Shown here in pieces: positions 32,955-58,449 of a stretch of 64,000 bases of DNA. The notes below the pieces were generated by a model. The model had not been told where the DNA came from. It did no database searches and saw only the letters and a list, made by a program, of their open reading frames with translations. A program made the translations under genes and the position numbers. The DNA comes from an uncultured Gammaproteobacteria bacterium (GTDB lineage: Bacteria; Pseudomonadota; Gammaproteobacteria; GCA-001735895): positions 38,897 through 102,896 of the forward strand of contig CAMYLU010000001.1 of the NCBI GenBank assembly GCA_947259485.1. The letters are read 5' to 3'. Each line of letters begins with the position of its first letter. The stretch's first letter is position 1.

Positions 32955-33699
32955 TCACGCACTATTCAAATCACTCAGCGGACTGCGCACCCCGCGCGCA
33001 CCACGCTTCAGCACGTGCGTGTGAATTTCGGTGGTTTTGACATCCTGGTGACCGAGCTGCTCCTGCACGGTGCGAATATCAGCACCGAATTCAAGCAAGT
33101 GCGTGGCGAAGGAATGGCGCGGCCAGCATCCACACGCCAGCGAACTGTTCATTCAGGCCGTCCTCCCTGAGATGCAACCTAACTCGCTCCACCTGATTTT
33201 TTAATCGGGGCAATAATTCCGGGGCAAGCGTGGTCAAGCGATGCCGGTAACCTTTGCCATTCCAGACCTGGATTTGCAAATGATCGAAGTCGATATCTTT
33301 AACGCGCAAACGTGCGACCTCGATACGTCGCAAACCTGAACCATACAGTAACGAAGTTATCAGAAAAGGTACTCCATTTAATTGCGTCCACAACTTCGCC
33401 ACATCGGTCCGGGACAACACCACCGGTAGTTTTGGTGGTACCTTAGAGCGCCTGTAACTGTGAACATCGCCCAGCGGTGTCTCCAGGAAACGGTTGTATA
33501 AAAACGCCAACGCATTCAGCGCAAGCTTCTGAATCGCCGCCGAAACGTTTCGCTCAACCGTCAAAAAAGTCAATAACTGCTCGACCACCCAATTCACCCG
33601 GATGTCGCTTACCATGAAAGTGGATGTAGTACTTGATCCAGTACAAATAAGATTCTATGGTACGTGGGCTTTAGTGGGTGATGGATTCAATAAAAGGAG
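32955..33699 (-). pseudogene. intI: Integron integrase pseudogene
   Basis: Fragments PFIESITH*SPRTIESYLYWIKYYIHFHGKRHP / LTVERNVSAAIQKLALNAL..LPVVLS..LLYGSGLR..LRVKDIDF..GKG..AGVWM / [36 protein letters not shown]; stop codon, two frameshifts, internal deletion. Confidence 0.93.
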
Positions 33700-34011
33700 C
33701 GGTGGTTTTGCCCTGATTGCGGGAGTTCGTTGCATTGTCGATATCTCGTGAATCTAGGTGATGATGATATTGCTGGAAATCCGGATCACATCATTATGTC
33801 TGTCGGAACTCTCGGCAAACCTGAGGTAGTGGAGATGGAGTACCACTACGGTGTCGAAAGTCAGGCCCCATGGGTTCACTTCGATGATAATTTACCGCGT
33901 ACACGCAGCGACGAAGATCCAGGCCTGATTAACGCATTGTCGTTAGCAAAAAAAAGGGGGCCTAAATATTCAATCATCGGATTGCATCTTGTGGCAAAAC
34001 AACCAATTTGA
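33697..34011 (+). pseudogene. 5'-truncated GFA-family cassette gene
   Basis: ERWFCPDCGSSL...HYGVESQAPW; N-terminal half missing; abuts intI 5' end. Confidence 0.75.
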
Positions 34012-34027
34012 CATTTGATCACGTGCC

Positions 34028-34100
34028 ACATAACAAGCGCATGCAGTCCGACCTCCAAAGGGCTACGCCTTTTGTCGACGGCTGATGCGGAACGTTGGGT
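34028..34100 (+). repeat. attC site
   Basis: ACATAAC AAGCGCATGCAGTCCGAC...GCTACGC...GGCTGATGCGGAAC GTTGGGT. Confidence 0.9.
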
Positions 34101-34122
34101 AAAACTAAAGGAGAATATTCGA

Positions 34123-34464
34123 ATGTCTTCAGTGAAATCGAGGAAAGAAATATGGCAGGAGTGGAAAGAGTTATTAAACATAGCTCCGGCGGAACTAGAA
34201 GATTGGCTTCAAACAGAAGAGAGCAAGGCGGTGGGGGATTCAACCGATGGTGAATCAACAGGACACAAGTCAGGGCGTAAAATTTTACAAATAAAGCGAA
34301 CCAAAAAAGAGGATCTGACTGACGATCAATGGACCCACATGGCCAAAGTAGTTGGATACATTAAGAGACATCGTGCGCAAGATGGCCCACGAGATGACGT
34401 AGAAAATAGTTCTTGGCGATACTCCTTGATGAACTGGGGGCATGACCCATTAAAAGAAGACTGA
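34123..34464 (+). CDS. DUF3140 family protein (cassette)
   Basis: ELEDWL, GESTGHKSGR, WRYSLMNWGHDP; RBS GGAG before ATG 34123. Confidence 0.8.
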   Translation: MSSVKSRKEIWQEWKELLNIAPAELEDWLQTEESKAVGDSTDGESTGHKSGRKILQIKRTKKEDLTDDQWTHMAKVVGYIKRHRAQDGPRDDVENSSWRYSLMNWGHDPLKED

Positions 34465-34601
34465 ATCAGATAAAGTAACAGTTATTTTTCCGAAGAGCGA
34501 AGCCATGAGTAAAGCATATCAAACGAACACCAACAATACTTCACGAATTGAAACCTATAGGTCCCGTGAAATTTTATGTTGAGTTTTATGAGTAAAGAGC
34601 C

Positions 34602-34676
34602 CTCTAACAAGCGCATGAAGACTGGCCTCACCAAGTGCTACGCGCTTGCTTCGGCCGCTGATACGAGGCGTTATGC
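34602..34676 (+). repeat. attC site
   Basis: CTCTAAC AAGCGCATG...GCCGCTGATACGAGGC GTTATGC. Confidence 0.9.
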
Positions 34677-34738
34677 GGCAGGTACAAACGCTGGCTGTAC
34701 TCGGAAGATTCGATCCTAAAATAGTAGGCCGCGAAATA

Positions 34739-35803
34739 TTACAACGTATCAAAAACAATAATTAGTTCTCCAGAATCAACACCCAAATCAACCGTTCGTT
34801 TAACCGTCTGTTTGAAAGTTTTGTCCCTCCAGGCTGTAACGACTAGCTCGTGATTTCCGGGCCCCAAACCGGTAAATTTAAATTCCCCACTGGCATTCGC
34901 ACTGACTTTGCGTGTCGAACGGGTTCTTACGCCTTTTTCATGTAACGCCCAATTCAGGTAAACCTCAGCACCGTCAAAGGTCTGACCGGATTCATCATAA
35001 ATACTGCCCCTGAGATTGTACGGGCCGAGATCAATGGTCAGGATTACCGGCATAGCAGTATCAGGGTCAAATTCTAGTCCGGATGCTCTTACTATTTGTG
35101 GTCCTTTGATCGTCACCTTGAATTTTCCTCTCGGAAATTCAGATACGGTAAAAGTGCCATTCGCATCAGTTAGGACCCTGGTAGTCGAGTATTCTTTTTC
35201 GACGGTCGTCACAGATAGCTCAAGATTGGTGACTGGCCGATCATACGGATCTACAATTCGGCCAATTAGTATGCCAACAGGAATGGGTTCCAGAATAATG
35301 TTATGTATTTCCTGATCCGACCTCAATTTAATCTGGGACTTGGTGTAACTATCAAACATTCCCCGTGGAGAAACTTTTAATACATAATCCCAACCCGGCT
35401 TGATATCGACAAATTTATAATCGCCAGAATTACCGGTAACTATCGAGTAACGTGCTTTCTGTGAGGGTGAGTACAATATTACTGTTTCACCGGCAATATA
35501 TTCTCCAAAATCAGTCCCTACCCACCCAGACAAGGAGATGTTATTGGTTGCGGGAGATATATCCTGCAAATTCCCAGTTGTCGCTTGAACTTCAACCGTC
35601 GACCGCACTTCTTGATTGCCATTACCAGGAGAAACATTTGGACTACTGACCTGATCTTCAATACCGTTCTCGAACCCAGTAACTTTAGAGGACGACTGAT
35701 GTTGCAGAGGATACAAATCGACTAAAGGAAGGCTGTAAAGCGCCATCACAATCGCCACCAGACCAATTGACGAAACTAGTAACAGTTTTCGATAGTCCGC
35801 CAT
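34739..35803 (-). CDS. Membrane-anchored protein with three carboxypeptidase-regulatory-like (beta-sandwich) repeats; inverted within cassette
   Basis: N-terminal TM; repeated G.V.D..G..I.GA.V...TD.NG.F.F..L.PG pattern. Confidence 0.75.
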   Translation of the reverse strand: MADYRKLLLVSSIGLVAIVMALYSLPLVDLYPLQHQSSSKVTGFENGIEDQVSSPNVSPGNGNQEVRSTVEVQATTGNLQDISPATNNISLSGWVGTDFGEYIAGETVILYSPSQKARYSIVTGNSGDYKFVDIKPGWDYVLKVSPRGMFDSYTKSQIKLRSDQEIHNIILEPIPVGILIGRIVDPYDRPVTNLELSVTTVEKEYSTTRVLTDANGTFTVSEFPRGKFKVTIKGPQIVRASGLEFDPDTAMPVILTIDLGPYNLRGSIYDESGQTFDGAEVYLNWALHEKGVRTRSTRKVSANASGEFKFTGLGPGNHELVVTAWRDKTFKQTVKRTVDLGVDSGELIIVFDTL

Positions 35804-35951
35804 TGGGACATTGTACCGGAGTATTTTATAATGGCCGCGTATTTTTCAGACCAACACCGTTTTATGGAGCAGGGATCAAGAGCATCAGTGTTCACCCAAA
35901 TGACTCTCTCAAGTAAAAGGCATCTGCAATGTTAAAATGTGAGTATATGCC

Positions 35952-36012
35952 GCATAACAAGCGCATGCAGCCGGCTACGCCTTTGGCTTGCCGCTGATGC
36001 GGGGCGTTAGCG
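35952..36012 (+). repeat. attC site
   Basis: GCATAAC AAGCGCATGCAG...GCCGCTGATGCGGGGC GTTAGCG. Confidence 0.9.
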
Positions 36013-36025
36013 AGCAAGACAATCC

Positions 36026-36424
36026 ATGACTGGTGAGAAAGGATTAGATAAGTTACTCGCATCCATGTCCCCGGAATTAATGGATGGAGAGTATGTGTTT
36101 TGCACATTCCAGAATGCTCAATACGGAGATTATTCGGATTTAGAACCAATAGCTGCAATTAGTGAATTAGAGGGACTCACTTTGATCATCCCAAAATCTA
36201 AAGCTGATGAGAAAAGCTTTAGTTATGAGTCAGTCTTTAAAGGCATCACATTAAGTATTCACTCTAGCCTTGATGCAGTGGGGCTGACAGCGGCGTTCTC
36301 AAGTAAACTAACTGAGCGTGGAATCAGTGCAAACGTAATTGCAGGTTATTACCATGATCACATATTTGTTCAGCGAGAACTTGCAAAGAGAGCCATTGAG
36401 GCACTCAATGAACTTGCTCGCTAA
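36026..36424 (+). CDS. ACT-domain protein (DUF2241-like) (cassette)
   Basis: MTGEKGLDKLL, VFC, HSSLDAVGLTA, GYYHDHIFV. Confidence 0.85.
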   Translation: MTGEKGLDKLLASMSPELMDGEYVFCTFQNAQYGDYSDLEPIAAISELEGLTLIIPKSKADEKSFSYESVFKGITLSIHSSLDAVGLTAAFSSKLTERGISANVIAGYYHDHIFVQRELAKRAIEALNELAR

Positions 36425-36493
36425 TAAGCGCATGCAGTCCGACCAAACCAGTCGCTAGGCGTCTAGTTTGGCCGCTGATGCGAGGCGTTAGGC
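36419..36493 (+). repeat. attC site (R'' AAC->AAT)
   Basis: CGCTAAT AAGCGCATGCAGTCCGACCAAAC...GTTTGGCCGCTGATGCGAGGC GTTAGGC. Confidence 0.88.
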
Positions 36494-36515
36494 GATTGGA
36501 AAATACCGAGTCGGA

Positions 36516-36962
36516 ATGAATCCAGTTTGGAGAATAAGAGAAGCAATGCCAGGAGACTCCGATGGCCTCAAAAACTGTATGGAGTCAGCCTATGCTACTT
36601 ATCAGGAACGAATGGGTGGAAAACGACTGCCACCTATGGACGTCGATTACTCGTCAGAAATACAAAACTATCCCACTTGGGTAGTGGAGTCGAACGGAAG
36701 TATTCTTGGCGGATTAATCATGGTATTCGAAAAAGATGGAGCCTCAATTGCAAATATAGCTGTTGATCCCAAATGTCAGGGACAAGGAATTGGAAGTGCG
36801 CTCATGAGTTTTGCGGAATCAAAAGCAAGGGAAAATAACTTCTCCGAATTACATCTAGCCACCCATGTGTTACTTAGTAAAAATATTTCCTTCTATCAGC
36901 ATCTTGGCTGGGAGGAAACTGAGAGAGATGAAACCAGAGTTCTTATGAAGAAAGAAATATGA
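36516..36962 (+). CDS. GNAT acetyltransferase (cassette)
   Basis: NIAVDPKCQGQGIG, FYQHLGW. Confidence 0.9.
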   Translation: MNPVWRIREAMPGDSDGLKNCMESAYATYQERMGGKRLPPMDVDYSSEIQNYPTWVVESNGSILGGLIMVFEKDGASIANIAVDPKCQGQGIGSALMSFAESKARENNFSELHLATHVLLSKNISFYQHLGWEETERDETRVLMKKEI

Positions 36963-36990
36963 ATCGCAAAAGATCAATTCTCCATGAATC

Positions 36991-37044
36991 GCCTAACAAG
37001 CGCATGCTGTCGGACTTGCAAACCGCTGATGCGGAGCGCTATGC
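36991..37044 (+). repeat. attC site (internally deleted; R' GTT->GCT)
   Basis: GCCTAAC AAGCGCATGCTGTCGGAC..CCGCTGATGCGGAGC GCTATGC. Confidence 0.85.
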
Positions 37045-37084
37045 GATTATCCAACTTGGCAGCATTGAGAAATGTTGAAATCGA

Positions 37085-37699
37085 ATGGCTAAACTTACAC
37101 TGAATTCATTTCTTACACTTGATGGCGTTATGCAAGCCCCAGGAGGGCCTAACGAAGATCCAAGCGGAAACTTTCAGCATGGCGGTTGGGTAGTCCCCCA
37201 TTTTGATCCAGACATGGGAGCAATCATGTTAGATATATTCTCCAGGGCGAGTGCATTTTTATTAGGGCGTGGCACTTATGATATTTTTTCGGCTCACTGG
37301 CCAAAGATCACCGACCCCAGCAATATTGTTGCATCAAAACTCAACTCGCTACCCAAGTTTGTTGTATCGAGCACGCAAAGCAGCTTTGCCTGGAATAATA
37401 CGAATCACGTTGTCGAAGTACCAGGAGATATTGAATCTATCAAAAACCAGTTTGAAGGTGAGCTACAGGTACATGGTAGTTATGTGCTGGCGCAAACACT
37501 AATAGAGCATAATTTGATCGACGAGTATCGACTTTTTATTATTCCAGTTGCCCTGGGGACTGGAAAGCGGCTGTTTAATTCTTTCTCGACACCCGTAGGA
37601 TTTGAGTTGATGGGCGCCAGGAGCATGCGCACAGGAGTTACATACAATGTCTATCGACCAACACAGAATTTTCAAACAGGATCATTCGAAATTGAGTAG
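37085..37699 (+). CDS. Dihydrofolate reductase-like / RibD C-terminal family protein (cassette)
   Basis: TLDGVMQAPGG, LLGRGTY, IDEY, LGTGKRLF. Confidence 0.88.
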   Translation: MAKLTLNSFLTLDGVMQAPGGPNEDPSGNFQHGGWVVPHFDPDMGAIMLDIFSRASAFLLGRGTYDIFSAHWPKITDPSNIVASKLNSLPKFVVSSTQSSFAWNNTNHVVEVPGDIESIKNQFEGELQVHGSYVLAQTLIEHNLIDEYRLFIIPVALGTGKRLFNSFSTPVGFELMGARSMRTGVTYNVYRPTQNFQTGSFEIE

Positions 37700-37704
37700 A
37701 CATC

Positions 37705-37776
37705 GTATAACAAGTGCAAGCAGTCGGACATCCAAAGGCTACGCCTTTTGTTTGCCGCTGATGCGGAGCGTTACAG
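37705..37776 (+). repeat. attC site
   Basis: GTATAAC AAGTGCAAGCAGTCGGAC...GCCGCTGATGCGGAGC GTTACAG. Confidence 0.9.
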
Positions 37777-37815
37777 GACATCTTCAACTTATTCTCGAAC
37801 ATCTAGAATTGTAGA

Positions 37816-38241
37816 GTGGCCGAGCTAAAGACCAAGAAAACTAGAGCAAGCGTCACGGCGTTTCTGGAATCCGTCGAGAATGAGCAGCGACGTGAAGACG
37901 CCTTTGAGCTGTTAGAAATATTCAAACAAACCACAAAAATGGCGCCGGCTTTATGGGGAAATAGTATCGTGGGTTTTGGCGAATATCACTATAAATCCGA
38001 GCGAAGTAGCCAAGAGGGAGATTGGCCTCTTACGGGTTTTTCTCCGCGAAAACGTAATATGACGGTTTATATAATGCCGGGCTTCACTAACTACCAGGAA
38101 TTACTGAGCAAGCTTGGTCAGCATAAAACCAGTGTTTCGTGCATTTACTTCAATAAAATAGAAAACATAGATGTGAAGGTATTGAAACAAATCATACGAA
38201 GGTCTGTTGTCGATATGAAAAAATTATACACATGGAAATAG
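37816..38241 (+). CDS. DUF1801 family protein (cassette)
   Basis: WGNSIVGFGEYHY, GFSPRK, LGQHKTSVSC. Confidence 0.82.
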   Translation: MAELKTKKTRASVTAFLESVENEQRREDAFELLEIFKQTTKMAPALWGNSIVGFGEYHYKSERSSQEGDWPLTGFSPRKRNMTVYIMPGFTNYQELLSKLGQHKTSVSCIYFNKIENIDVKVLKQIIRRSVVDMKKLYTWK

Positions 38242-38276
38242 CGAAGCTATTAAATGAAGTGCAATGGTATGCTGCC

Positions 38277-38336
38277 CCATAACAAGCGGTTGCAGTCAGA
38301 CTTGCAAACCGCTACGCACTTTGCGAGGTGTTATGC
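38277..38336 (+). repeat. attC site (right arm partly deleted)
   Basis: CCATAAC AAGCGGTTGCAGTCAGAC...GCTACGC..TGCGAGGT GTTATGC. Confidence 0.8.
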
Positions 38337-38360
38337 GATTTTCTCAGACCTAACAGATAG

Positions 38361-38654
38361 ATGAAGCATTTGTGCCCACATTGTCATGATGAATGCATGT
38401 CTACGATGCAAAAGTTATTCATGGGTTCGGCATCTTCAAGACCATGCAAGAGCTGTGGAAGAGAAGTTACCATTCCGAGGAAGTACTACGTTTTGATGAT
38501 AGTCGCTTTGGGATTACTTTTTCTCGGTTCAAAGATGGTGAAACTGGAGACGATACAAATTTTGATTATAGGACTAGTAATAGCAATTGTATTTTCGCTG
38601 ATACAGATTTATATCGTTCCAATTTCAAAGAACAAATCCGCCCAACTAAGATGA
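38361..38654 (+). CDS. Small Zn-ribbon membrane protein (cassette)
   Basis: CPHC...CKSC plus two TM helices. Confidence 0.7.
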   Translation: MKHLCPHCHDECMSTMQKLFMGSASSRPCKSCGREVTIPRKYYVLMIVALGLLFLGSKMVKLETIQILIIGLVIAIVFSLIQIYIVPISKNKSAQLR

Positions 38655-38699
38655 TCAATATTGTATCGAATTGTGTAACCACGATTAAGCGGAGAAATT

Positions 38700-38909
38700 A
38701 TGGACATATATGAAAAGTGGGGATACTCGTTACTATCGATTATTGCGGCAATTTACTTGATTGCTATGTTTGTAGGAATGATAGCGGCCTTTCTGTATGG
38801 CCTTCTAGGTCTTCTCCTAATGGCAGGCATTGGGGTTTTACTGGTTAAGGTAGTAAAAGAGCGCAAGCAGCCGGACATGCAAAAGGCTACGTCCTTTATC
38901 TGCCGCTGA
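38700..38909 (+). CDS. Small membrane protein whose C-terminus reads into an attC
   Basis: RBS GGAG; two TMs; last ~15 codons lie within attC sequence. Confidence 0.65.
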   Translation: MDIYEKWGYSLLSIIAAIYLIAMFVGMIAAFLYGLLGLLLMAGIGVLLVKVVKERKQPDMQKATSFICR

Positions 38910-38924
38910 TGTGAGACGTTATGA
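38860..38924 (+). repeat. attC site lacking R''
   Basis: AGCGCAAGCAGCCGGAC...GCTACG...GCCGCTGATGTGAGAC GTTATGA. Confidence 0.82.
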
Positions 38925-38951
38925 AAATTTCAAAACTTATAGAGACGGATC

Positions 38952-39305
38952 ATGGAATACGTGGAAGGTTTAGTCGCAGCAGTTCCCACTAAGAAAAAAG
39001 AGGAATTCATTAAACACGCCAGAGAAGCTGCCGCTGTCTTTAAGGAGCACGGCGCAATTCGACTCGTTGAATGCTGGGGGGATGATGTACCTACCGGTGA
39101 GATTACGTCGTTCCCGATGGCGGTAAAATGCAAGGAAGATGAGACAGTCGTGTTCTCGTGGATAGTTTGGCCATCCCGCGAAACCCGCAACACCGGTATG
39201 GAGGGAGTCATGAACGACCCTAGAATGACCAGCGAGTCTAATCCCATGCCTTTTGATGGGACCCGATTAATCCATGGCGGGTTTCAGATAATAGTTGAAG
39301 AGTAA
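38952..39305 (+). CDS. DUF1428 family protein (cassette)
   Basis: YVEG, ECWGDDVP, TSFPMAV, VVFSWI, MPFDG. Confidence 0.88.
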   Translation: MEYVEGLVAAVPTKKKEEFIKHAREAAAVFKEHGAIRLVECWGDDVPTGEITSFPMAVKCKEDETVVFSWIVWPSRETRNTGMEGVMNDPRMTSESNPMPFDGTRLIHGGFQIIVEE

Positions 39306-39318
39306 CGAGAAATTATTT

Positions 39319-39391
39319 TCATAGCAATCACATGCAGTCAGACTGCCAAACCGCTACGCGTTTTGTCGAGCGTTGATGCGTGGCGTAATGA
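39319..39391 (+). repeat. attC site (both cores mutated)
   Basis: TCATAGC AATCACATGCAGTCAGAC...GCTACGC...CGTTGATGCGTGGC GTAATGA. Confidence 0.8.
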
Positions 39392-39407
39392 GTAAAGAGG
39401 CAAGTAA

Positions 39408-39839
39408 ATGACAGAACCTGAAATCTGGACATTCTTCTACGGCTCATTCATCAATTTGAATGTCCTGAAAGAGCTTGACTACACCCCACGAAAATATGAG
39501 GTTGCAAGACTTTCCGGATTTGATATCACGATCCGTCCGATCGCAAACCTTATTAAGTCTGAGCAGCATACCGTCTATGGCATAGTTGCAACTGGCACCC
39601 ACTCTGAACTTTCACGTCTTTACGATCACGCAGAGAACGTCTTGGGCGGACGTTATCTGCCCGAAGCTGTGTTGGTTCAGACTATGTCAGGCCATTGGAT
39701 ATCTGCGCTGTGCTACATTTCTCCGAAATTAAGTGGGGAAAGTGCATCAACTGATTATGTTGATCGAATTTTAAAACCAGCTAAAACACACGAGTTCCCA
39801 ACTTGGTTTATCGAGAGGATAGAATCATTCAAGTCTTGA
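39408..39839 (+). CDS. Gamma-glutamylcyclotransferase-like protein (cassette)
   Basis: FFYGS N-terminal motif, VYG. Confidence 0.75.
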   Translation: MTEPEIWTFFYGSFINLNVLKELDYTPRKYEVARLSGFDITIRPIANLIKSEQHTVYGIVATGTHSELSRLYDHAENVLGGRYLPEAVLVQTMSGHWISALCYISPKLSGESASTDYVDRILKPAKTHEFPTWFIERIESFKS

Positions 39840-39855
39840 TGCAGTTGTAAAATGC

Positions 39856-39916
39856 TCATAAGAAGCGCATGCAGTCGGACCTGGCAAAACTGGGCCGCTG
39901 ATGCCAGGCGTTATGT
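39856..39916 (+). repeat. attC site (R'' AAC->AAG)
   Basis: TCATAAG AAGCGCATGCAGTCGGAC..GCCGCTGATGCCAGGC GTTATGT. Confidence 0.85.
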
Positions 39917-39946
39917 GTTGAATTGTAATTGAATGACGGAGGGGAA

Positions 39947-40369
39947 ATGAATGAAGGAAAAGGGCACTGCCTTTGTGGTGCAGTAAGTTTCACTGTCAAA
40001 AACATGAACTACAGCGTAGACGCATGTCATTGTGGTATGTGCAGGAGATGGGGCGGTGGACCTTTAATGTTTGTCGATTGCAGTACAGATGTTACTTTCG
40101 AAGGAATGGAAAACATTACTGTTTATGACTCTTCTGACTGGGCGGAGCGGGCGTTCTGCAAGAAATGCGGCAGCCACCTATTTTATCGACTCAAAGGCAA
40201 CAATGCTCATCAGATGCTAGTAGGTCAATTTCAAGATCAGAAGAATTTTCATTTTGACTTACAGGTATATATGGATCGAAAACCAGCTTTTTATGATTTC
40301 GGGAATAAAACGAGAGAATTAACAGAGGCCGAAGTAATAGAAGAATTTGGCCCCGAACAGAACACATAA
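39947..40369 (+). CDS. GFA family protein (cassette)
   Basis: GHCLCG, CHCGMCRR, ERAFCKKCG; stop overlaps R''. Confidence 0.9.
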   Translation: MNEGKGHCLCGAVSFTVKNMNYSVDACHCGMCRRWGGGPLMFVDCSTDVTFEGMENITVYDSSDWAERAFCKKCGSHLFYRLKGNNAHQMLVGQFQDQKNFHFDLQVYMDRKPAFYDFGNKTRELTEAEVIEEFGPEQNT

Positions 40370-40436: not shown

Positions 40437-40463
40437 GGCACAACAATATTTACTGAGAGGGAG

Positions 40464-50786: not shown

Positions 50787-50787
50787 A

Positions 50788-51552: not shown

Positions 51553-51686
51553 CAGGCATATTTAGAAAAGAGCGTCACCAAAACCGGTATACGCGACGGT
51601 AATATCTATCCTGTCACTTATTCTGGCGTTCGGTTATGTCTGGAGCATGTGACGGAACAATAGCCCAGGTTAAGTAATACTGAAAA

Positions 51687-51941
51687 ATGAACATACTTAA
51701 ATATACCGCGTTCCTGTTTTTAGGTTTTTCGTTTGCAGGCTTTTTGTACGTAGCCTGGCTTTTAATCGTGGTTCCAACATCCAGTTTCGATACACAGGGG
51801 CCGGGCCTGGCGGGCGCAATCGTTGTGTTCGCCGCTCAAATATTCGGATTCGTCGGTATATTTTTGTTCACAGTGTGGATTGCAATAAAATACAGGCAGG
51901 CGCCAGCAACGAGGGACAGTGATGAAGAAACTGAAAAATGA
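51687..51941 (+). CDS. Small membrane protein
   Basis: Two TM helices, co-oriented. Confidence 0.55.
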   Translation: MNILKYTAFLFLGFSFAGFLYVAWLLIVVPTSSFDTQGPGLAGAIVVFAAQIFGFVGIFLFTVWIAIKYRQAPATRDSDEETEK

Positions 51942-52158
51942 AAAAGAGATGCTCAAAAAAGCAATTATCGAGGGTGTTAAGTACGGAGAAAAAAGAGGTG
52001 TGGTCGAGTTTGAACCCACCGATTCGGCAAACGAAAAAATTGAGTACATATATCGGCTACTGGTGCACGATAAAGTGATCCAGCCTATTCCACAGGATCA
52101 GATTTCACAAAAATCAATGATGCATAAACTGGCAATATGGGCCTCAAGACTAGATTAG
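51922..52158 (+). CDS. DUF5062-like protein
   Basis: MKKLKNE, KRG, IYRLLVHDK, HKLAIW. Confidence 0.65.
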   Translation: MKKLKNEKEMLKKAIIEGVKYGEKRGVVEFEPTDSANEKIEYIYRLLVHDKVIQPIPQDQISQKSMMHKLAIWASRLD

Positions 52159-52183
52159 GTTTTGGCGCCAGGTAAAAAGCCGC

Positions 52184-52624
52184 ATGAAAAATTTTGTCAT
52201 CAGAACATTTCGCTCCAACGACGAACCGGATGTCATCGATCTATGGCATCAGTGCGGCTTAATCGTCCCCTGGAACAATCCCAAAACTGATATTCAGCGA
52301 AAACTTTCAACTTCTCCCGACCTGTTTTATATCGGATTACTCGATGACGAACTGATCGCAAGCTGCATGGCGGGATATGATGGCCATCGCGGCTGGATTT
52401 ATTTCCTCGCAGTGAAAGACGCCTGTCAACGCAAAGGTTTTGCCTCAATGCTCGTTGATCACGCCGAATCAGAATTGATTACGTTGGGCTGTCCAAAGGT
52501 AGAACTAATGGTCAGAAAGACTAACCAGAATGTCGTTTCGTTTTACCAGAGTGCCGGCTATGACATTGACCCGGTCATGGTACTGAGCAAGCGGTTGATA
52601 GAAGATGAACCGCATGACTACTAA
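52184..52624 (+). CDS. GNAT acetyltransferase (YpeA-like)
   Basis: PWNNP, MAGYDGHRGWIY, GCPKV. Confidence 0.9.
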   Translation: MKNFVIRTFRSNDEPDVIDLWHQCGLIVPWNNPKTDIQRKLSTSPDLFYIGLLDDELIASCMAGYDGHRGWIYFLAVKDACQRKGFASMLVDHAESELITLGCPKVELMVRKTNQNVVSFYQSAGYDIDPVMVLSKRLIEDEPHDY

Positions 52625-53177
52625 CCACGATGAGGTAATCAGGTCGGTACAAAACTGGGTTGATTCTTTTGTCGTGGAATTGAATCTATGTCCGTTTGCC
52701 AGGAGCGTGCTGGCAGATAGCCGGGTACGTTTCACTGTGACCGCTGCAGCGACTGAAGAACAGTTACTAACCGCGTTGCAAGTTGAACTGGAACTGCTAA
52801 ATCGCGACCCATCGATCGAAACCACGCTGCTGATTCACCCCGGGGTATTACACGACTTTTACGACTACAACCAGTTCCTGGATAGCGCCGATCAATTACT
52901 GCTGCAACTGAAACTGGAGGGAATCTACCAGGTCGCGAGCTTCCACCCGGATTACCAGTTTGGCGGCACCGCCCCGGATGATGTTGAAAATTATACCAAC
53001 CGGTCACCCTATCCTGTTTTGCAACTGCTTCGGGAAGCCGGCGTCGAACGAGCCCTTGCCGGATTTCCCGATGCAGATCAAATCCCGGCGCGTAACATTG
53101 CGTTGATGAATAGCCTGGGCAAGGAAAAGTTAGACGTTTTGACACAAGTATGTTCTAGCGGTGAAGAGTCAAAATGA
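52605..53177 (+). CDS. DUF1415 family protein
   Basis: LNLCPFA, ETTLLIHP, QVASFHP, TNRSPYP. Confidence 0.88.
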   Translation: MNRMTTNHDEVIRSVQNWVDSFVVELNLCPFARSVLADSRVRFTVTAAATEEQLLTALQVELELLNRDPSIETTLLIHPGVLHDFYDYNQFLDSADQLLLQLKLEGIYQVASFHPDYQFGGTAPDDVENYTNRSPYPVLQLLREAGVERALAGFPDADQIPARNIALMNSLGKEKLDVLTQVCSSGEESK

Positions 53178-53261
53178 TTGATAATAAGCGCCGGATAATC
53201 GGACGGTAAGTACAGCCGATTATTCATCATCCTCGAAAACGAAGAGATACTGGAGAAAGAA

Positions 53262-53549
53262 ATGGCAAACGAAGGCTATCATGAGCCCATTAGCGAACTA
53301 ACCGATGAAACCAGGGATATGCACAGAGCGATAACCTCGCTGATGGAAGAGCTGGAAGCAGTTGACTGGTATAACCAACGTGTCGATGCCTGTAAGAACA
53401 ACGAACTTAAGGCAATCCTTGCGCACAACCGCGACGAGGAAAAGGAACATGCAGCAATGGTGCTTGAATGGATACGCCGCCAGGACCCGACATTCGATAA
53501 AGAGCTTAAAGACTACCTCTTCACCGAGGATGAGATTGCCCACGGATAA
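53262..53549 (+). CDS. Encapsulin-type ferritin-like protein (Flp/EncFtn family)
   Basis: HRAITSLMEELEAVDWYNQR, HNRDEEKEHA, LEWIRR. Confidence 0.9.
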   Translation: MANEGYHEPISELTDETRDMHRAITSLMEELEAVDWYNQRVDACKNNELKAILAHNRDEEKEHAAMVLEWIRRQDPTFDKELKDYLFTEDEIAHG

Positions 53550-53591
53550 AATCCGGCCGCCAAAAGATTACGGGCAACGGCAGGACGAATC

Positions 53592-54122
53592 ATGTTTTCC
53601 ATAGAGTCGTGCGAGCTTCCAGGAGAAGCGCTGCTGACCAGCTACTCTAGTAGTGGGGCCTACACGGATTGTTATCGCACCGAAGTCCCCGGGATCGTCA
53701 CGCATACACAGTATGTCGGCGCCTTCTATACCACTTCACTCTTCAAGTTAGAACGCGTGATACTGGCCTGGTTTGTATCAAAACCCTCAACTGACCACGA
53801 GGCGGAACAATTGGCAGCAGGTTCGACCAACCAGTTTGCTGCCTGGCAAGTGGAAAGCAGGGCCGAAAACCAGTTGTTACTGTCCGATTTCCGCGGCCGC
53901 ACCAGGTCTTGGCTGATGGTGCTTCCAGCTGGCGAAGACAACAAACCAAGGACGCATCTGTATTTCGGCTCCGCGGTCACGACGGTACCAGATCAAAAAA
54001 CAGGCAAGATGACGCTAGGCAACGGATTTCGCGTCCTGCTCGGTTTTCATAAAATTTACTCGCGGCTACTCTTATACTCGGCCAGGTTACGCCTCAAGAC
54101 GCAATCGGGCGGAAAGGGCTAA
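53592..54122 (+). CDS. Hypothetical protein (DUF2867-like)
   Basis: YTDCY, FAAW, GRTRSW, FGSAV, FHKIYSR. Confidence 0.7.
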   Translation: MFSIESCELPGEALLTSYSSSGAYTDCYRTEVPGIVTHTQYVGAFYTTSLFKLERVILAWFVSKPSTDHEAEQLAAGSTNQFAAWQVESRAENQLLLSDFRGRTRSWLMVLPAGEDNKPRTHLYFGSAVTTVPDQKTGKMTLGNGFRVLLGFHKIYSRLLLYSARLRLKTQSGGKG

Positions 54123-54125
54123 AGC

Positions 54126-54884
54126 ATGCGCATCGTGTCCTGGAATATCCGTGCCGGCAGCGGTAAACGCGCAACCGGGGTACTGGCGCAATTGCTTGCA
54201 TGGCAGCCTGAAATTATCGGACTAAGCGAATTTCGGGGTACCAGTGCAAGCCAGTGGCTGGCATCCGAACTGGAGGTAGCCGGATATTGCTACCAGCTGA
54301 GCAGTATAAATTCGAAACTGCCCGCCAAAAACGCACTCCTGTTGGCCAGCCGTTACCCCCTGCAGGCAATCGAGGAAACGGGAATGCCAGGTATCCGCGA
54401 ACGCTGGCTGATGGCCGCTGTTGATACCCAGCCCACTTTGACGCTCGGCTTGATGCATATCCCGAACTACACTGCGCCCGGCTTGAAATATCCATTCCTG
54501 GAATCGCTTCTGAAGATGGTTAAAAAATGGAACCGTGGGCCGGGGCTCATAATGGGAGACACTAACTGCGGTAAACGCGGACTTGACGAGGAAAAGCCAC
54601 AGGGCCCCAGGTTTCAGCGCGAACATGACTGGATCGTCGGCATGGAGCAGCGTGGCTTTGCAGATGTTTTTCGCCACCTTCACGGGGATCGTCGCGAGTA
54701 CACCTGGTATTCGCACCGCAATAACGGATTTCGGCTAGACCACGCTTTTTGCAGTCCGCAGCTGGTGCCGGCGATTACCGGTCTTCAGCACGCCTGGGGC
54801 CGTGATCCCGAACAACCCAACCGCCGCGCTGCCCTGAGCGATCATGCGGCCGTTATTATCGAACTCGCTACCGATATAATATAG
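54126..54884 (+). CDS. Endonuclease/exonuclease/phosphatase (ExoIII-like) protein
   Basis: SWNI, LSE, GDTN, YTW, RLDH, SDHA. Confidence 0.9.
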   Translation: MRIVSWNIRAGSGKRATGVLAQLLAWQPEIIGLSEFRGTSASQWLASELEVAGYCYQLSSINSKLPAKNALLLASRYPLQAIEETGMPGIRERWLMAAVDTQPTLTLGLMHIPNYTAPGLKYPFLESLLKMVKKWNRGPGLIMGDTNCGKRGLDEEKPQGPRFQREHDWIVGMEQRGFADVFRHLHGDRREYTWYSHRNNGFRLDHAFCSPQLVPAITGLQHAWGRDPEQPNRRAALSDHAAVIIELATDII

Positions 54885-54979
54885 CTACTTCAGTCCTGTT
54901 GGCATTTCATATGACAATGCGTAATCATCCGCGAACCGAACGCCTGCCCAGATCAGGCAATGCCAGGAGTTAAACTACC

Positions 54980-55288
54980 ATGTTGGAACTTCGCCCCAAT
55001 TGTGAATTCTGCGACAAGGACTTACCCCCTGATTCGACTGAGGCCTGCATTTGTACCTATGAATGTACCTTCTGTTCCGACTGTGTCGAAAGCCTACTCC
55101 AAAACGTATGCCCCAACTGCGGTGGCGGTTTTGTCAAGCGACCGGTAAGGCCCGCTACCGAGCGTCGCACCGGTACGGGCCTGGCTCATCACCCGGCTTC
55201 AACCAAACGGGTGCACACAAAATATAGTCGCGACGAAGTCAGCGAATTTGTGCGCACACTAAAAGACATCATACCGGAGCAGCGATGA
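54980..55288 (+). CDS. DUF1272 family protein
   Basis: MLELRPNCE, ICTYECTFC, CPNCGG. Confidence 0.88.
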   Translation: MLELRPNCEFCDKDLPPDSTEACICTYECTFCSDCVESLLQNVCPNCGGGFVKRPVRPATERRTGTGLAHHPASTKRVHTKYSRDEVSEFVRTLKDIIPEQR

Positions 55289-55857
55289 TGCCAGGGCGTA
55301 ACCCGGACAAAACCGCGCTATTGATAATCGACGTACAAAAGGGCCTGGACGAACCATCGCTGGGACAGCGCAATAATCCAGGCGCTGAAGCCAACATGGC
55401 CTCAATACTCGCCGCGTGGCGTGAGCAGCAGGGCACGGTTATTCATATTCGCCATTGTTCGCTAGACCCGGAATCTCCGTTGCGCCCAGAACTGCCGGGA
55501 AACGCATTCAAAGCAGAGGTCCAGCCCCTGCCCGGCGAGAAGGAATTTACCAAGGCGGTTAATAGCGCCTTTATCGGAACCGGTCTGGAGCAGTATCTAC
55601 GGAAATCGGGTATTTCGAGACTGGTTATTATGGGGCTCACTACCGATCACTGCGTCTCGGCATCAACCCGCATGGCTTCCGATCTCGGCTTTGATGTGAC
55701 CCTGGTTAGTGATGCGACCGCGGCATTTGAACGCGTTGGCTACGACGGTGTTCATTATTCCGGCGAGGAAATCCACCGGGTTAACCTGGTAAGCCTTGAC
55801 CGCGAATTCTGCGTGCTTCGATCAACCGCAGAAGTGTTGGGCGAAATTCAAGCGTAA
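55285..55857 (+). CDS. Isochorismatase-like cysteine hydrolase
   Basis: ALLIIDVQ, K..NSAF, TDHCV. Confidence 0.9.
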   Translation: MMPGRNPDKTALLIIDVQKGLDEPSLGQRNNPGAEANMASILAAWREQQGTVIHIRHCSLDPESPLRPELPGNAFKAEVQPLPGEKEFTKAVNSAFIGTGLEQYLRKSGISRLVIMGLTTDHCVSASTRMASDLGFDVTLVSDATAAFERVGYDGVHYSGEEIHRVNLVSLDREFCVLRSTAEVLGEIQA

Positions 55858-55875
55858 TTAACCTGGAGAACAACT

Positions 55876-56340
55876 GTGAATAAAACCGGCGGTTGCCAAT
55901 GCGGCAGCATTAAATATGAATTAACCGGCGCACCGAAAATGCTCTATATCTGCCATTGCAAGGACTGCCAGAAACAGTCGTCGAGTGCATTTGGCATGTC
56001 GTTGAGGATGGATCCCGATGACATCGCTTTCATACAGGGCGAGGATCGCTTGAAAACCTGGGATACCCGCGGTGAAAACGGTGCAATCAAGCGCTGCGCC
56101 TTTTGCCCTGATTGTGGCACCCGAATCATTCACGGTTCCGACAGTCCAGATGAGGTGGTCAGCATCAAGGCCGGTTCGCTGGACGATACCAGCTGGCTGG
56201 ATCCGGTGGCGCATATCTGGTTGCAAAGCGCACAACCCTGGATAGCCATCGATCACGATCACTACCGCTGTTTCGAGCGGGAACCCGAAGACGAAAATGC
56301 GTTGAGAAAACGATGGCAATCACAAAATCCTGTGAACTGA
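55876..56340 (+). CDS. GFA family protein
   Basis: GGCQCG, CHCKDCQK, FCPDCG. Confidence 0.9.
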   Translation: MNKTGGCQCGSIKYELTGAPKMLYICHCKDCQKQSSSAFGMSLRMDPDDIAFIQGEDRLKTWDTRGENGAIKRCAFCPDCGTRIIHGSDSPDEVVSIKAGSLDDTSWLDPVAHIWLQSAQPWIAIDHDHYRCFEREPEDENALRKRWQSQNPVN

Positions 56341-56444
56341 CATTGTAACCAGGAGCCATTGCCATCGTGACAAGAGCAGCTAAAGCAATTTGTACCTACG
56401 CAGGGTATCATCGACAGTAAATTACTGGCTTACTGAACTCCGCC

Positions 56445-57107
56445 ATGTCCACTATCAAACTACTCGGACTTAGAATCAGCGTTTACACCCGCATCGCGCG
56501 AATGGCGCTCGAGGAAAAAAGTGTCGATTACGAGCTTGAGGAAGTAGATATATTTGCCGATACGGGACCTCCCGAAGAATACCTTGCGCACAATCCGTTC
56601 GGTACTATTCCATGCCTGATGCATGGTGAATTCTACCTGTACGAAACCGGTGCGATTACCCGCTATATCGACGAAACCTTTCCCGGTGTGGCATTGCAGC
56701 CGTCGGTTTCGTCACGACGCGCGCGCATGAATCAAATCATTAGCATTCTTGATGCCTATACCTATCGGCCGATGGTTTGGGATGTTTACGTGCAACGTAT
56801 TGTCGTGCCCAGTGGCGGTGGCAGACCGGATGAAAGCCTGGTAGCAGCGGCCTTGCCAAACTTGAAAAATGTCCTCCAGCAGCTTGAACTCCTGCAGGAT
56901 GAATACGAGTTCCTGACGGGCGATTCAGTATCGCTAGCAGACCTGCATGCCTATCCGATGCTTCGCTACTTCATGGAAACCCCGGAGGGTTCGACAATGC
57001 TGAAATCGTATCCCGGACTGGAACATTGGATGCAACAAATGCAGGCAAGACCCAGCGCACGCGCGACGAGTTTTCATACCACGACAGAGACCGAAAACGG
57101 CTTTTAA
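56445..57107 (+). CDS. Glutathione S-transferase family protein
   Basis: NPFGTIP, YETGAITRY, SLADL. Confidence 0.9.
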   Translation: MSTIKLLGLRISVYTRIARMALEEKSVDYELEEVDIFADTGPPEEYLAHNPFGTIPCLMHGEFYLYETGAITRYIDETFPGVALQPSVSSRRARMNQIISILDAYTYRPMVWDVYVQRIVVPSGGGRPDESLVAAALPNLKNVLQQLELLQDEYEFLTGDSVSLADLHAYPMLRYFMETPEGSTMLKSYPGLEHWMQQMQARPSARATSFHTTTETENGF

Positions 57108-57130
57108 CAGAGGACGTCGGGAAAAGACCG

Positions 57131-57628
57131 GTGCTTGTTACCCACGAGAATGAATCCACTTACCAGGTCAGTAACAACAGTTACGTGATTCCGGTGCTAT
57201 TTTTGTGCATCCCGCCGCTAATGCTGATCGAACTTGGCCCCGGAGTACTTGATGGCAGCATTAAAACCGGTGAACTGGTTGGCCTGTTTATCGGCATCCT
57301 GTTGCCGCTAGTCGGGGCCTATTATTACATTGAGTTCGCGAGCTTCACCTTTTCCAGAACTGAAGGTGTCTTTCACTGGCGCTGGCGCAACCTGTTCAAT
57401 AAAAAGACAGGGAAAGTGCCATTCAGCCGTATCGCCAAGGTCAGGCGTGATGCTATCGAATCCGGCGATTCGGGTGGTCTGAAATATTCTCACCGGCTCG
57501 TCGTGATCCTCGACGATAATACGATCATACCCCTGACGCGGGGTTACTCGGGTTTGCACAGCAAGAAACTGGATCATATAGTTGATCAAATTCGTGATTA
57601 CATCGGGCATAGTAGCGCAATGAACTGA
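57131..57628 (+). CDS. Membrane protein with PH-like C-terminal region; start uncertain
   Basis: Two TMs then beta-rich domain; in-frame GTG 57131. Confidence 0.6.
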   Translation: MLVTHENESTYQVSNNSYVIPVLFLCIPPLMLIELGPGVLDGSIKTGELVGLFIGILLPLVGAYYYIEFASFTFSRTEGVFHWRWRNLFNKKTGKVPFSRIAKVRRDAIESGDSGGLKYSHRLVVILDDNTIIPLTRGYSGLHSKKLDHIVDQIRDYIGHSSAMN

Positions 57629-58005
57629 TGGCTCTGATAGATGCCAGGCAAAACATGACTTACTACATTGTTAAAATTGTTATCTCGGCAATACTGATTG
57701 TCGCAATCTCGGAAATATCCAAGCGCAGTTCGTTGCTTGGCGCCCTGTTGGCATCCATACCGCTGGTGTCGGTGTTGGCGATGATCTGGCTTTATATCGA
57801 TACCAAAGATGTCGACCGGGTGGGCGCGCTTGCTTCCAGCATTTTCTGGCTGGTATTACCGTCGCTAGCCCTTTTCATCGCGTTGCCACTGCTATTGAAA
57901 CAGGGATACAATTTTTATTTCAGCATGGGGGCATCGATTACGATAACCATCGGTTGCTACTGGCTAATGGTCACAGTACTCGACCAGGCAGGTATTGAGC
58001 TCTGA
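57628..58005 (+). CDS. DUF3147-like membrane protein
   Basis: ISEISKRS, ASIPLVS, IFWLVLPS. Confidence 0.75.
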   Translation: MALIDARQNMTYYIVKIVISAILIVAISEISKRSSLLGALLASIPLVSVLAMIWLYIDTKDVDRVGALASSIFWLVLPSLALFIALPLLLKQGYNFYFSMGASITITIGCYWLMVTVLDQAGIEL

Positions 58006-58053
58006 CTGAAGTCGGGTCATGACAATGATCACCTTGTTAAGGCTGAGAATCTG

Positions 58054-58449
58054 ATGGAGACGAAACAGTTATACCTGATTGCAGCCGATGCCACTCTTTT
58101 CATCCATGCGTCATTTGTCGGCTTTGTTGTTTTCGGATTAATCCTGGTCTTTGTCGGCAAGCTGTCCTCCTGGTCCTGGGTACGCAATCGACGCTTTCGC
58201 ATCGCACATCTTGCGGCGATCGGTATCGTCGTGCTGCAATCCTGGTTCAGCGTTATCTGTCCTCTTACGCTGTGGGAAATGGAACTGCGGAACAGGGCCG
58301 GTGATGTAACCTACCCGGGATCGTTCGTTGCGCACTGGCTGGAGACGCTGCTTTATTACCGTGCGCCGGAATGGGTGTTTATTTTACTGTATACCCTGTT
58401 CGGGGCGCTGGTGGTCGGCAGCTGGTTCTGGGTTCGCCCCAGGAGCTGA
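58054..58449 (+). CDS. DUF2784 family membrane protein
   Basis: H..F..FV, RIAHL, CPLT.WE, LYY. Confidence 0.8.
   Translation: METKQLYLIAADATLFIHASFVGFVVFGLILVFVGKLSSWSWVRNRRFRIAHLAAIGIVVLQSWFSVICPLTLWEMELRNRAGDVTYPGSFVAHWLETLLYYRAPEWVFILLYTLFGALVVGSWFWVRPRS

What the first reader, a model, noticed from the sequence alone, without database searches (positions are those of the whole stretch)
32955..58449. A frozen integron apparently being domesticated: dead integrase, attC decay gradient, intact cargo
Seen: intI is a pseudogene and attI is gone. About 20 attC sites share one core (TAAC AAGCGCATGCAGTCGGAC...GCTACGC...GCCGCTGATGCG..C GTT). They are near-canonical close to intI (34-36.5 kb), increasingly mutated or deleted from 37 to 50 kb (with exceptions at 40.4, 41.3 and 48.7 kb), and barely detectable past 50.5 kb. 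Nearly all cargo ORFs remain full length. Established: sedentary chromosomal integrons have lineage-specific attC families, with older cassettes lying distal to intI. Inference: recombination signals are eroding while cargo is under purifying selection, turning a cassette array into a fixed operon-like island between argH and lptM-lysA.
Basis: partly seen in the sequence, partly recalled or inferred. Interest (0 to 1): 0.8.

Follow-up and report, generated by a model that had tools for sequence, protein, structure and literature searches.

The report
Chromosomal integron with dead integrase
This is a chromosomal gene-capture array (integron) whose integrase gene is broken, but the wear on its recombination sites is older than that break, because sister species with a working integrase show the same wear.

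Summary
The observation largely holds. intI (window 32955-33697, minus strand) is a pseudogene with five lesions relative to an intact orthologue in sister species G002, and the native attI is deleted. One attC family gives 18 significant sites plus 5 remnants between 34.0 and 50.44 kb. Their model score falls with distance from intI (rho -0.64, p 0.002). Cargo shows purifying selection (pooled dN/dS about 0.2; flanking genes 0.09).

The same fall occurs in G002 and G004, which keep an intact intI, and in G009. Position-matched sites of G000 and G002 score alike (mean difference -1.8 bits, p 0.70), and most lesions are shared base for base. So attC erosion predates the integrase death. It looks like normal ageing of a sedentary chromosomal integron.

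No attC is detectable from 50.5 to 58.4 kb. Its right part is a block kept across the genus beside a 2OG oxygenase gene.

A degenerate copy of the genus attI lies mid-array at 42.7 kb.

This is a known kind of element. This scan has noted decayed integrons on other DNA (34 notes).

The parts
30801..32189 (+). argH, left flanking core gene
   Evidence: Pfam Lyase_1 plus ASL_C2. 96% amino-acid identity in G002 and G015.
32233..32922 (-). Carboxylesterase (Abhydrolase_2), the conserved left neighbour of intI in the genus
   Evidence: Pfam. Found in 31 of 41 genus genomes. It sits directly beside intI in G002, G022, G001, G023, G024, G004, G019 and G011 (coordinates).
32955..33697 (-). intI pseudogene: 5' end missing, 18-bp, 8-bp and 194-bp deletions, a TAA stop, and catalytic Tyr>His
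   Evidence: TIGR02249 pieces below cut-off. Alignment to intact G002 intI. Polarised codon changes.
33698..34026 (+). Junction DNA that replaces the intI start, its promoter region and attI. It holds a 93-codon ORF with no family match.
   Evidence: No homology to the G002 intI-attI region. No attI profile hit. No Pfam match.
34027..42228 (+). Proximal part of the array: 12 attC sites (R3 31-74 bits) at 34027, 34601, 35951, 36418, 36990, 37704, 38276, 38850, 39318, 39855, 40363 and 41273, plus a 3' half remnant at 42204. 9 of these 13 keep the R' GTT triplet and the 3' arm.
   Evidence: Model scores. Aligned sequences. Intergenic sequences. Half-site scan.
42693..42765 (+). Degenerate copy of the genus attI (delta-attI), following the DUF3465 gene. 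The core GTT is lost. G000-G002 homology breaks at its core, where G002 carries 2.9 kb more.
   Evidence: Alignment to five native attI sites. nhmmer E 0.0036. Motif found once in the window. Pairwise alignment. Synteny.
43815..50443 (+). Distal part of the array: sites at 43815, 45099, 45541, 46193, 46320, 47246, 48317, 48675, 49749 and 50359 (R3 57 bits down to noise). Four gene junctions have no site. 6 of these 14 junctions keep the R' GTT triplet and the 3' arm.
   Evidence: Most lesions are shared with G002.
50444..58449 (+). attC-free run of same-strand small genes, from a fatty-acid hydroxylase to DUF2784. The part from 54980 to 58449 is syntenic across the genus.
   Evidence: No model or half-site hit above background. 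Synteny beside the 2OG oxygenase in 10 of 11 species loci. No attC or attI in those loci. GC 0.51-0.55 from 53 kb, against 0.40-0.49 in the array.
58525..59580 (-). 2OG-Fe(II) oxygenase, the right-hand conserved anchor gene
   Evidence: Pfam. Found in 19 of 41 genus genomes.

Best explanation
This is a sedentary chromosomal integron at the argH-carboxylesterase locus of an uncultivated gammaproteobacterium. Sequence nearly identical to it is held by marine-sediment metagenome runs.

Shown: the integrase gene was destroyed after the split from sister species G002. One deletion also removed its start, the attI site and the region that would hold the cassette promoter.

Shown: the attC quality profile was already in place before that. 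Sites are good near intI, worn further out, and absent in the last 8 kb.

Inferred mechanism: new cassettes enter at attI, so distal cassettes are older. An attC that loses its GTT triplet or an arm can no longer be excised. Its cassette therefore stays put while proximal cassettes turn over. Immobile cassettes pile up distally under purifying selection on their genes. This ratchet runs with a live integrase.

The integrase loss in G000 is a recent extra step. It immobilises the 15 sites that still look competent. Cassettes can still be lost or swapped without the integrase, by ordinary homologous recombination between the conserved attC halves.
For: - intI lesions and the attI deletion.
- No second intI in the 96.7%-complete assembly; the only other matches are two Xer-like genes.
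- An intact intI (338-codon frame, 420.9 bits) sits beside the same carboxylesterase in G002.
- The score falls with distance in G000 (rho -0.64), G002 (-0.76), G004 (-0.75, intact intI) and G009 (-0.61). G000 and G002 were scored with a model trained on neither.
- Position-matched sites score alike (mean -1.8 bits, p 0.70).
- Lesions are shared base for base.
- The proximal cassette set differs between G000, G002 and G009, while the distal part is collinear.
- Pooled cargo dN/dS is 0.21 and 0.18, against 0.09 for flanks.
- The HAD cassette swap between G000 and G002 has its breakpoints in mid-attC, not at the G|TT crossover point.
- One contig of run X1 joins 45554 to 46345 with 52 bases on the shorter side.
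Against: - G002 is a fragmented metagenome bin. Its intI contig (C143) and its array contig (C8) are not joined, and the activity of its integrase is untested.
- Model scores measure likeness to the family consensus, not recombination. Several low-scoring sites keep 13-15 of 16 modelled pairs.
- By the cruder criterion (GTT triplet and 3' arm present), proximal 9 of 13 versus distal 6 of 14 is not significant (Fisher p 0.25).
- Of the 12 matched pairs, several are positional rather than true orthologues, because their upstream cassette differs.
- The three most proximal matched sites score lower in G000 (-21, -9, -16 bits). Some extra decay after the integrase death is therefore not excluded.
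- The pairwise dN/dS covers both lineages and mostly predates the integrase death.
Confidence: 0.75

Rival explanations
1. The integron froze when intI died, and since then the attC sites have been eroding for lack of use while the cargo is kept. The gradient is then a product of domestication after inactivation.
For: intI is dead and attI is gone. The gradient exists. Cargo dN/dS is about 0.2. The three most proximal matched sites score 9-21 bits lower in G000 than in G002.
Against: The same gradient occurs with an intact intI in G002 and G004. Lesions in mid and distal sites are shared with G002. There is no overall score deficit in G000 (p 0.70). The intI remnant still shows 11 non-synonymous to 9 synonymous changes on the G000 branch, against 7 to 7 on the G002 branch, so inactivation looks recent.
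Confidence: 0.1
2. The low-scoring distal sites are not decayed. They belong to diverged but still functional attC variants, so the gradient reflects mixed cassette origins and not loss of function.
For: attC function depends on folded structure more than on sequence (established knowledge, recalled). Sites 45099, 45541, 46320 and 48317 keep 13-15 of 16 modelled pairs and the R' GTT triplet. Site 45541 has a paired change (CAT/ATG to CTT/AAG) that keeps a stem.
Against: The GTT triplet is lost at 46193, 47246, 49749 and 50359. Four distal junctions have no site at all. The canonical hairpin is the minimum-energy fold in 3 of 8 distal sites, against 7 of 12 proximal sites (my reading of the folds).
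Confidence: 0.15
3. The last 8 kb (50.5-58.4 kb), or at least 54.98-58.45 kb, was never part of the cassette array. It is an ordinary chromosomal gene block that the array abuts.
For: No attC or attI is found there in any of the species loci examined. Synteny beside the 2OG oxygenase holds in 10 of 11 loci, at identities like those of the core flanking genes. GC of 0.51-0.55 is close to the flanks. In G004 the block and the integron lie on different long contigs.
Against: All the genes are short, on the cassette strand, and of families typical of cassettes (GNAT, GFA, GST, DUFs). Relatives show single-gene gains and losses inside the block, including a DUF1428 homologue of a G000 cassette in G001, and DUF1272 is absent from G002 and G015. 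In G050 and G049, attC-bearing cassettes follow the block.
Confidence: 0.5

Closest known systems
Xanthomonas chromosomal integrons with inactivated intI (Gillings et al. 2005, as summarised in preprint 10.1101/2025.06.18.660453; I read passages found by term search)
   Same: The integron sits at a fixed chromosomal locus. intI has been inactivated repeatedly and lineage by lineage through frameshifts, stops and deletions. Arrays are stable where intI is dead and variable where it is intact.
   Different: This is a different host group (marine-sediment gammaproteobacterial bins), a different locus (argH side, not ilvD) and a different attC family. Here a sister species with an intact intI allows site-by-site dating of attC lesions. 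I did not find that comparison in the passages I read.
CALIN beside an intI pseudogene (Cury et al. 2016, PMC4889954; passages read)
   Same: It is a cluster of attC sites without a functional integrase and with a recognisable intI pseudogene next to it. Cury et al. report such pseudogenes near 15 of 279 CALINs.
   Different: With 18 significant sites it is much larger than the average CALIN (5 sites in that paper). IntegronFinder itself was not run here.
Large sedentary chromosomal integrons such as the Vibrio superintegron
   Same: It has a lineage-specific homogeneous attC family, a long same-strand array, and cargo of small accessory genes (recalled knowledge).
   Different: The integrase is dead. 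The attC sites are far less uniform. No toxin-antitoxin cassettes were recognised in the Pfam scan.
Delta-attI-type gene cassettes of mobile integrons (PMC12901181; abstract read)
   Same: A gene inside the array (DUF3465, 42205-42675) is followed by an attI-derived site and not by an attC.
   Different: It lies in a chromosomal array. The attI copy has lost its GTT core. No function has been shown.

Membership tests
Integron (complete) | Functional integron integrase gene (a tyrosine recombinase scoring above the TIGR02249 cut-off) | tested here: not met
   There are three pieces of 153.1, 89.9 and 25.7 bits against a 265-bit cut-off. Positions 200-264 are deleted, the frame is broken and the catalytic Tyr is changed to His.
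Integron (complete) | attI site next to intI | tested here: not met
   The genus attI profile has no hit between intI and the first attC. Homology to G002 ends inside intI.
Integron (complete) | Array of cassettes, each ending in an attC with paired R''/R' and L''/L' boxes, AAC/GTT triplets and extrahelical bases | tested here: met
   18 sites at E below 1e-4 with a 16-pair covariance model trained on other species. The triplets and two bulged bases are visible in the alignment.
Integron (complete) | Cassette promoter Pc | not testable with these tools
   The region where it would lie is deleted. The consensus promoter scan gave fewer hits than shuffled sequence.
CALIN with neighbouring intI pseudogene (Cury et al. 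2016) | At least two attC sites, no intact intI nearby, and a recognisable intI pseudogene within 10 kb | tested here: met
   The definition comes from passages of PMC4889954. IntegronFinder itself was not run.
Sedentary chromosomal integron | Same chromosomal locus across related species, and a lineage-specific attC family | tested here: met
   intI lies beside the same carboxylesterase in at least 8 genus genomes. The same attC family is found in G002, G015, G009 and G004.
Delta-attI-type cassette | Cassette bounded downstream by an attI-derived site | tested here: inconclusive
   The site at 42693-42765 aligns to native attI sites, but weakly (15 bits, E 0.0036), and its core is mutated.

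The most novel reading that the evidence does not exclude
Chromosomal integrons in this genus work as a conveyor into the core genome. Cassettes enter at attI and lose their attC as they age. They end up as the attC-free block (50.5-58.4 kb) that is conserved across the genus, so that block would be the end product of cassette domestication. The degenerate attI copy at 42.7 kb would mark a fossil array start, onto which a younger array was stacked. The array would then be an accretion of at least two generations.
Probability: 0.2. Interest if true: 0.65.

Novelty: new member of a known kind. Interest (0 to 1): 0.4.

Why it matters
Integrons with dead integrases and fixed arrays are well documented, so the element itself is ordinary. 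The useful result is comparative. A sister species with an intact integrase shares the same worn sites. This shows that attC erosion along an array is part of the normal life of a chromosomal integron and not a symptom of its death. It cautions against reading 'decay gradients' as evidence of domestication after inactivation. It also gives a concrete locus, with a set of related genomes, in which to ask whether old cassettes become core genes.

Tried and rejected
- Rfam at gathering thresholds found no family in the window.
- RNAalifold could not recover the attC hairpin because of its bulges, so the structure was set by hand.
- Step versus gradient. The best single cut in G000 falls between 41273 and 43815, at the attI copy. 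It fits no better than a straight line (AIC 107.1 versus 105.8), and in G002 the line fits better. A two-tier model is therefore not supported over a gradient, although the two sides do differ (means 57 versus 33 bits, p 0.0015).
- Single-strand DNA folding discriminates poorly. Even canonical sites have modest z-scores.
- The promoter and terminator scan stayed below shuffled expectation: 21 versus 28.5, and 12 versus 17.4.
- Expression: no RNA holder was listed for this stretch.
- Metagenome contigs: many joints fall at attC sites, but with 20-26 bases on the shorter side. These sit inside the repeat and are uninformative. Only the 45554-to-46345 joint has 52 bases.
- The ORF at 33730-34011 looked like a truncated GFA gene by eye, but it has no Pfam match.
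- Polarised substitution counts in the intI remnant are too few to date the inactivation.
- A scan-notes look-up for all the gradient words found nothing.
- One had a frame error and was corrected.
- Supplementary files of the papers were not seen. They may hold per-site attC data for Xanthomonas.
Full report
**What is there**

The window is G000:C1:38897-102896. Left of the finding lie argH (30801-32189) and a carboxylesterase (32233-32922, minus strand).

The integron-integrase profile TIGR02249 then matches three collinear minus-strand pieces, all under the 265-bit cut-off:
- 33557-33679 (model positions 12-52, one TAA inside)
- 33121-33585 (positions 46-199)
- 32967-33119 (positions 265-315)

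The only other matches in the 3.69-Mb, 96.7%-complete assembly are two Xer-like genes.

**The integrase lesions**

Sister species G002 has 95% amino-acid identity in the flanking genes. It carries an intact intI (338-codon open frame, 420.9 bits) directly beside the same carboxylesterase. Aligning the two shows five lesions in G000:
- Homology ends at window 33697, about codon 6. The start codon, the promoter region and attI are therefore replaced by unrelated DNA.
- An in-frame 18-bp deletion sits next to a TAT>TAA stop.
- An 8-bp frameshifting deletion.
- A 194-bp deletion at 33119.
- The catalytic tyrosine codon is changed to His.

With three outgroups, the G000 branch has 11 non-synonymous and 9 synonymous changes. 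The G002 branch has 7 and 7 (242 codons compared). The counts are too few to date the event, but they do not suggest a long neutral history.

intI loss is recurrent in the genus:
- G015 keeps only about 40 bp of the gene's 3' end before its cassettes begin.
- Another close relative (L045) has a frameshifted C-terminus.
- One search lists many fragments. 15 of the 41 genomes searched have a match above the cut-off.

**attC sites**

I set a 16-pair structure by hand: an R box, an unpaired spacer, and an L box with two bulged bases. I then built three covariance models:
- R1 from 15 G000 sites
- R2 from 29 sites of relatives
- R3 from 21 sites of G015, G009 and G004 only

R3 is independent of both G000 and G002. 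It finds 18 sites at E below 1e-4, all on the + strand:

| Window start | R3 bits |
|---|---|
| 34027 | 73.9 |
| 34601 | 59.0 |
| 35951 | 57.0 |
| 36418 | 68.6 |
| 36990 | 45.6 |
| 37704 | 70.2 |
| 38276 | 31.3 |
| 38850 | 51.2 |
| 39318 | 53.4 |
| 39855 | 56.7 |
| 40363 | 60.6 |
| 41273 | 59.6 |
| 43815 | 27.7 |
| 45099 | 41.3 |
| 45541 | 37.3 |
| 46320 | 32.2 |
| 48317 | 36.2 |
| 48675 | 56.8 |

Weaker remnants are:
- 46193 (17.7 bits)
- 49749 (11.6 bits)
- 47246 (10.7 bits with R1)
- a 3' half at 42204 (half-site score 22.1 against a background maximum of 9.0)
- 50359-50443 (9.0 bits with R2; 3' half 10.7)

Beyond 50.45 kb, no model or half-site score exceeds the background of the rest of the window.

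**Integrity of the sites**

Reading the aligned sites:
- The R' GTT triplet is changed at 36990 (GCT), 39318 (GTA), 42204 (GCC), 46193 (GTC), 49749 (GGT) and 50359 (CTT).
- 47246 has no recognisable R'.
- 38276 has lost its 3' arm.
- Four junctions have no site at all: 44671-44734, 47817-47822, 49311-49414 and 50020-50035.

By this crude criterion, 9 of 13 sites up to 42.3 kb look competent, against 6 of 14 junctions beyond it (Fisher p 0.25). Broken sites are interspersed from 3 kb onward, and an intact site survives at 48.7 kb.

**The gradient**

R3 score against position gives rho -0.64 (p 0.002, n 20, about -2.5 bits per kb) in G000.

**Does it follow from the dead integrase?**

G002 contig C8 carries a largely collinear array. 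With the same neutral model, its scores fall in the same way (rho -0.76, p 1e-4, n 20).

G004 has an intact intI of a different clade (433.8 bits). It shows rho -0.75 (p 0.003, n 13). G009 shows rho -0.61 (p 0.006, n 19). Both were scored with R1, which was not trained on them.

Twelve position-matched pairs of G000 and G002 differ by -1.8 bits on average (Wilcoxon p 0.70), and their scores correlate (rho 0.76).

Pairwise alignments show that the following are shared, almost base for base:
- the arm deletion at 38276
- the half site at 42204
- the remnants at 47246, 49749 and 50359
- the two site-less junctions that were aligned (44.7 and 47.8 kb)

G002 even has GTT>ATT at the orthologue of 48317, where G000 keeps GTT.

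The erosion was therefore present in the common ancestor and coexists with an intact integrase.

Caveats:
- Several of the 12 pairs are positional and not true orthologues, because their upstream cassette differs. Their central parts differ accordingly.
- The three most proximal pairs score lower in G000 (-21, -9, -16 bits), so a small extra decay is possible.
- G002 is a fragmented bin, and its integrase activity is untested.

**Turnover**

Between G000 and G002 the proximal cassettes differ.
- G000 alone has DUF3140, ACT, a GNAT, RibD_C, DUF1428, AIG2 and a GFA gene.
- G002 has other blocks in their place.
- G009 holds some of the same genes in another order.

From 42.8 kb on, the two arrays are collinear apart from three differences: a 2.9-kb extra segment in G002, a swap of the HAD cassette, and the presence of 48693-49753 in G000 only.

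The HAD swap has its breakpoints in the middle of the two flanking attC sites, not at the canonical G|TT point. One contig of run X1 joins 45554 to 46345 with 52 bases on the shorter side. Both fit homologous recombination between attC repeats, which needs no integrase. This is inference.

**Cargo**

Most ORFs have full-length Pfam matches of families typical of cassettes: GNATs, GFA, methyltransferases and many DUFs.

Nei-Gojobori estimates for G000 versus G002 give pooled dN/dS of 0.21 for genes before 50 kb and 0.18 for those beyond it, against 0.09 for flanking genes. G015 and G009 give 0.11-0.16. A few short ORFs reach 0.4-0.7, on few changes.

These ratios show purifying selection along the combined lineages. 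They do not isolate the period after the integrase died.

**The last 8 kb**

DUF1272, isochorismatase, GFA, GST, two unnamed ORFs and DUF2784 (54980-58449) lie beside the 2OG oxygenase gene in other species. At least two of these genes are found there in 10 of the 11 species loci fetched. The eleventh contig ends 1.65 kb past the gene. Identities (54-80%) are like those of the core flanking genes.

None of these loci has an attC or attI hit inside the block. GC is 0.51-0.55 there, against 0.40-0.49 in the array and 0.55-0.60 in the flanks.

In G004 the block and the integron sit on different long contigs. In G050 and G049, attC-bearing cassettes follow the block.

Single-gene differences occur inside the block. 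G001 has a DUF1428 homologue there, and DUF1272 is missing from G002 and G015.

Whether the block is very old fixed cassettes or native chromosome cannot be decided here.

lptM-lysA starts near 63.4 kb. Between it and the block lie the oxygenase, DUF1304, a dehydrogenase, and PhzF-like, DUF3830, DUF402 and LysE genes.

**A fossil attI**

About 190-200 bp upstream of intI, five relatives share a conserved element that ends in GCTGTTATGT. By position it is the attI. A degenerate motif taken from it occurs only there in those five, at the matching place in G048, and once inside the G002 array.

A profile of the element hits the window once, at 42693-42756 (15 bits, E 0.0036), right after the DUF3465 gene. 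Its core GTT is lost there. G000-G002 homology breaks exactly at that core, where G002 has 2.9 kb more.

Cassettes bounded by attI remnants are described for mobile integrons (PMC12901181, abstract). The best single step in G000 scores falls at this point, but a step fits no better than a line.

**Elsewhere in the genome**

- Contig C39 has an attI-like element with an intact GTTAGGT core at 24673-24731 (E 9e-7). It is followed by the two best-scoring attC sites of the genome (78.3 and 74.1 bits) and then the contig end. No intI lies nearby.
- C34 ends 130 bp after another attC (50.3 bits).
- 5' attC halves fused to a palindromic repeat and to attI-like ends occur on C3, C5, C6, C7, C27, C34 and C42.
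- The genome-wide model search scored only 150 of 1543 first-look candidates.

**Comparison with what is known**

- Cury et al. 2016 (PMC4889954, passages read) define CALINs. They list loss of intI among their origins, and report intI pseudogenes near 15 of 279.
- The Xanthomonas preprint (10.1101/2025.06.18.660453, passages read) describes repeated lineage-specific intI inactivation with stable arrays. It summarises Gillings et al. 2005 in the same sense.
- This scan holds 34 notes on decayed integrons in other genomes.
- I found no paper stating that attC decline with distance is shared between sister arrays with dead and live integrases. That is two searches of open literature only, and supplements were closed.

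**Verdict**

This is a real, large, recently inactivated sedentary chromosomal integron, a new member of a known kind. The causal reading is not: the wear on the attC sites is inherited, not a consequence of freezing.

Noticed in passing
G000 contig C39:24400-25943 (outside the window): A second array start. An attI-like element with an intact GTTAGGT core is followed by at least three cassettes and by the two best-scoring attC sites of the genome (78.3 and 74.1 bits). It runs off the contig end and has no intI nearby. Contig C34 also ends just after an attC (58203-58264).
   Followed up: partly
G000 contigs C3, C5, C6, C7, C27, C34, C42 (coordinates): Dispersed single genes are bracketed by an attI-like element upstream and, downstream, by a 5' attC half fused to a palindromic repeat.
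   Followed up: partly
window 40464-45097 and 55876-57107: Many array genes have lower synonymous divergence from G002 (dS 0.04-0.12) than the flanking core genes argH, the carboxylesterase and the 2OG oxygenase (0.23-0.30). This hints that array segments were exchanged between the lineages after they split.
   Followed up: no
L024 (G015:C8:20000-26802) and L045: There are independent intI losses in close relatives. G015 keeps only about 40 bp of the intI 3' end before its cassettes begin. The L045 gene has a frameshifted C-terminus.
   Followed up: partly
window 34739-35803: One cassette gene is on the opposite strand to all the others. It encodes a 354-residue protein with CarboxypepD_reg-like repeats, and it is conserved in G002 (86% identity).
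   Followed up: no
window 53262-53549: An EncFtn-like (encapsulated ferritin) gene is very conserved across G002, G015 and G009 (97-99% identity, dN/dS 0.02-0.07). No encapsulin shell gene was recognised beside it.
   Followed up: no
window 45554-46345: A contig of metagenome run X1 joins these two points and skips the HAD cassette. The join lies within the 5' halves of two attC sites.
   Followed up: partly
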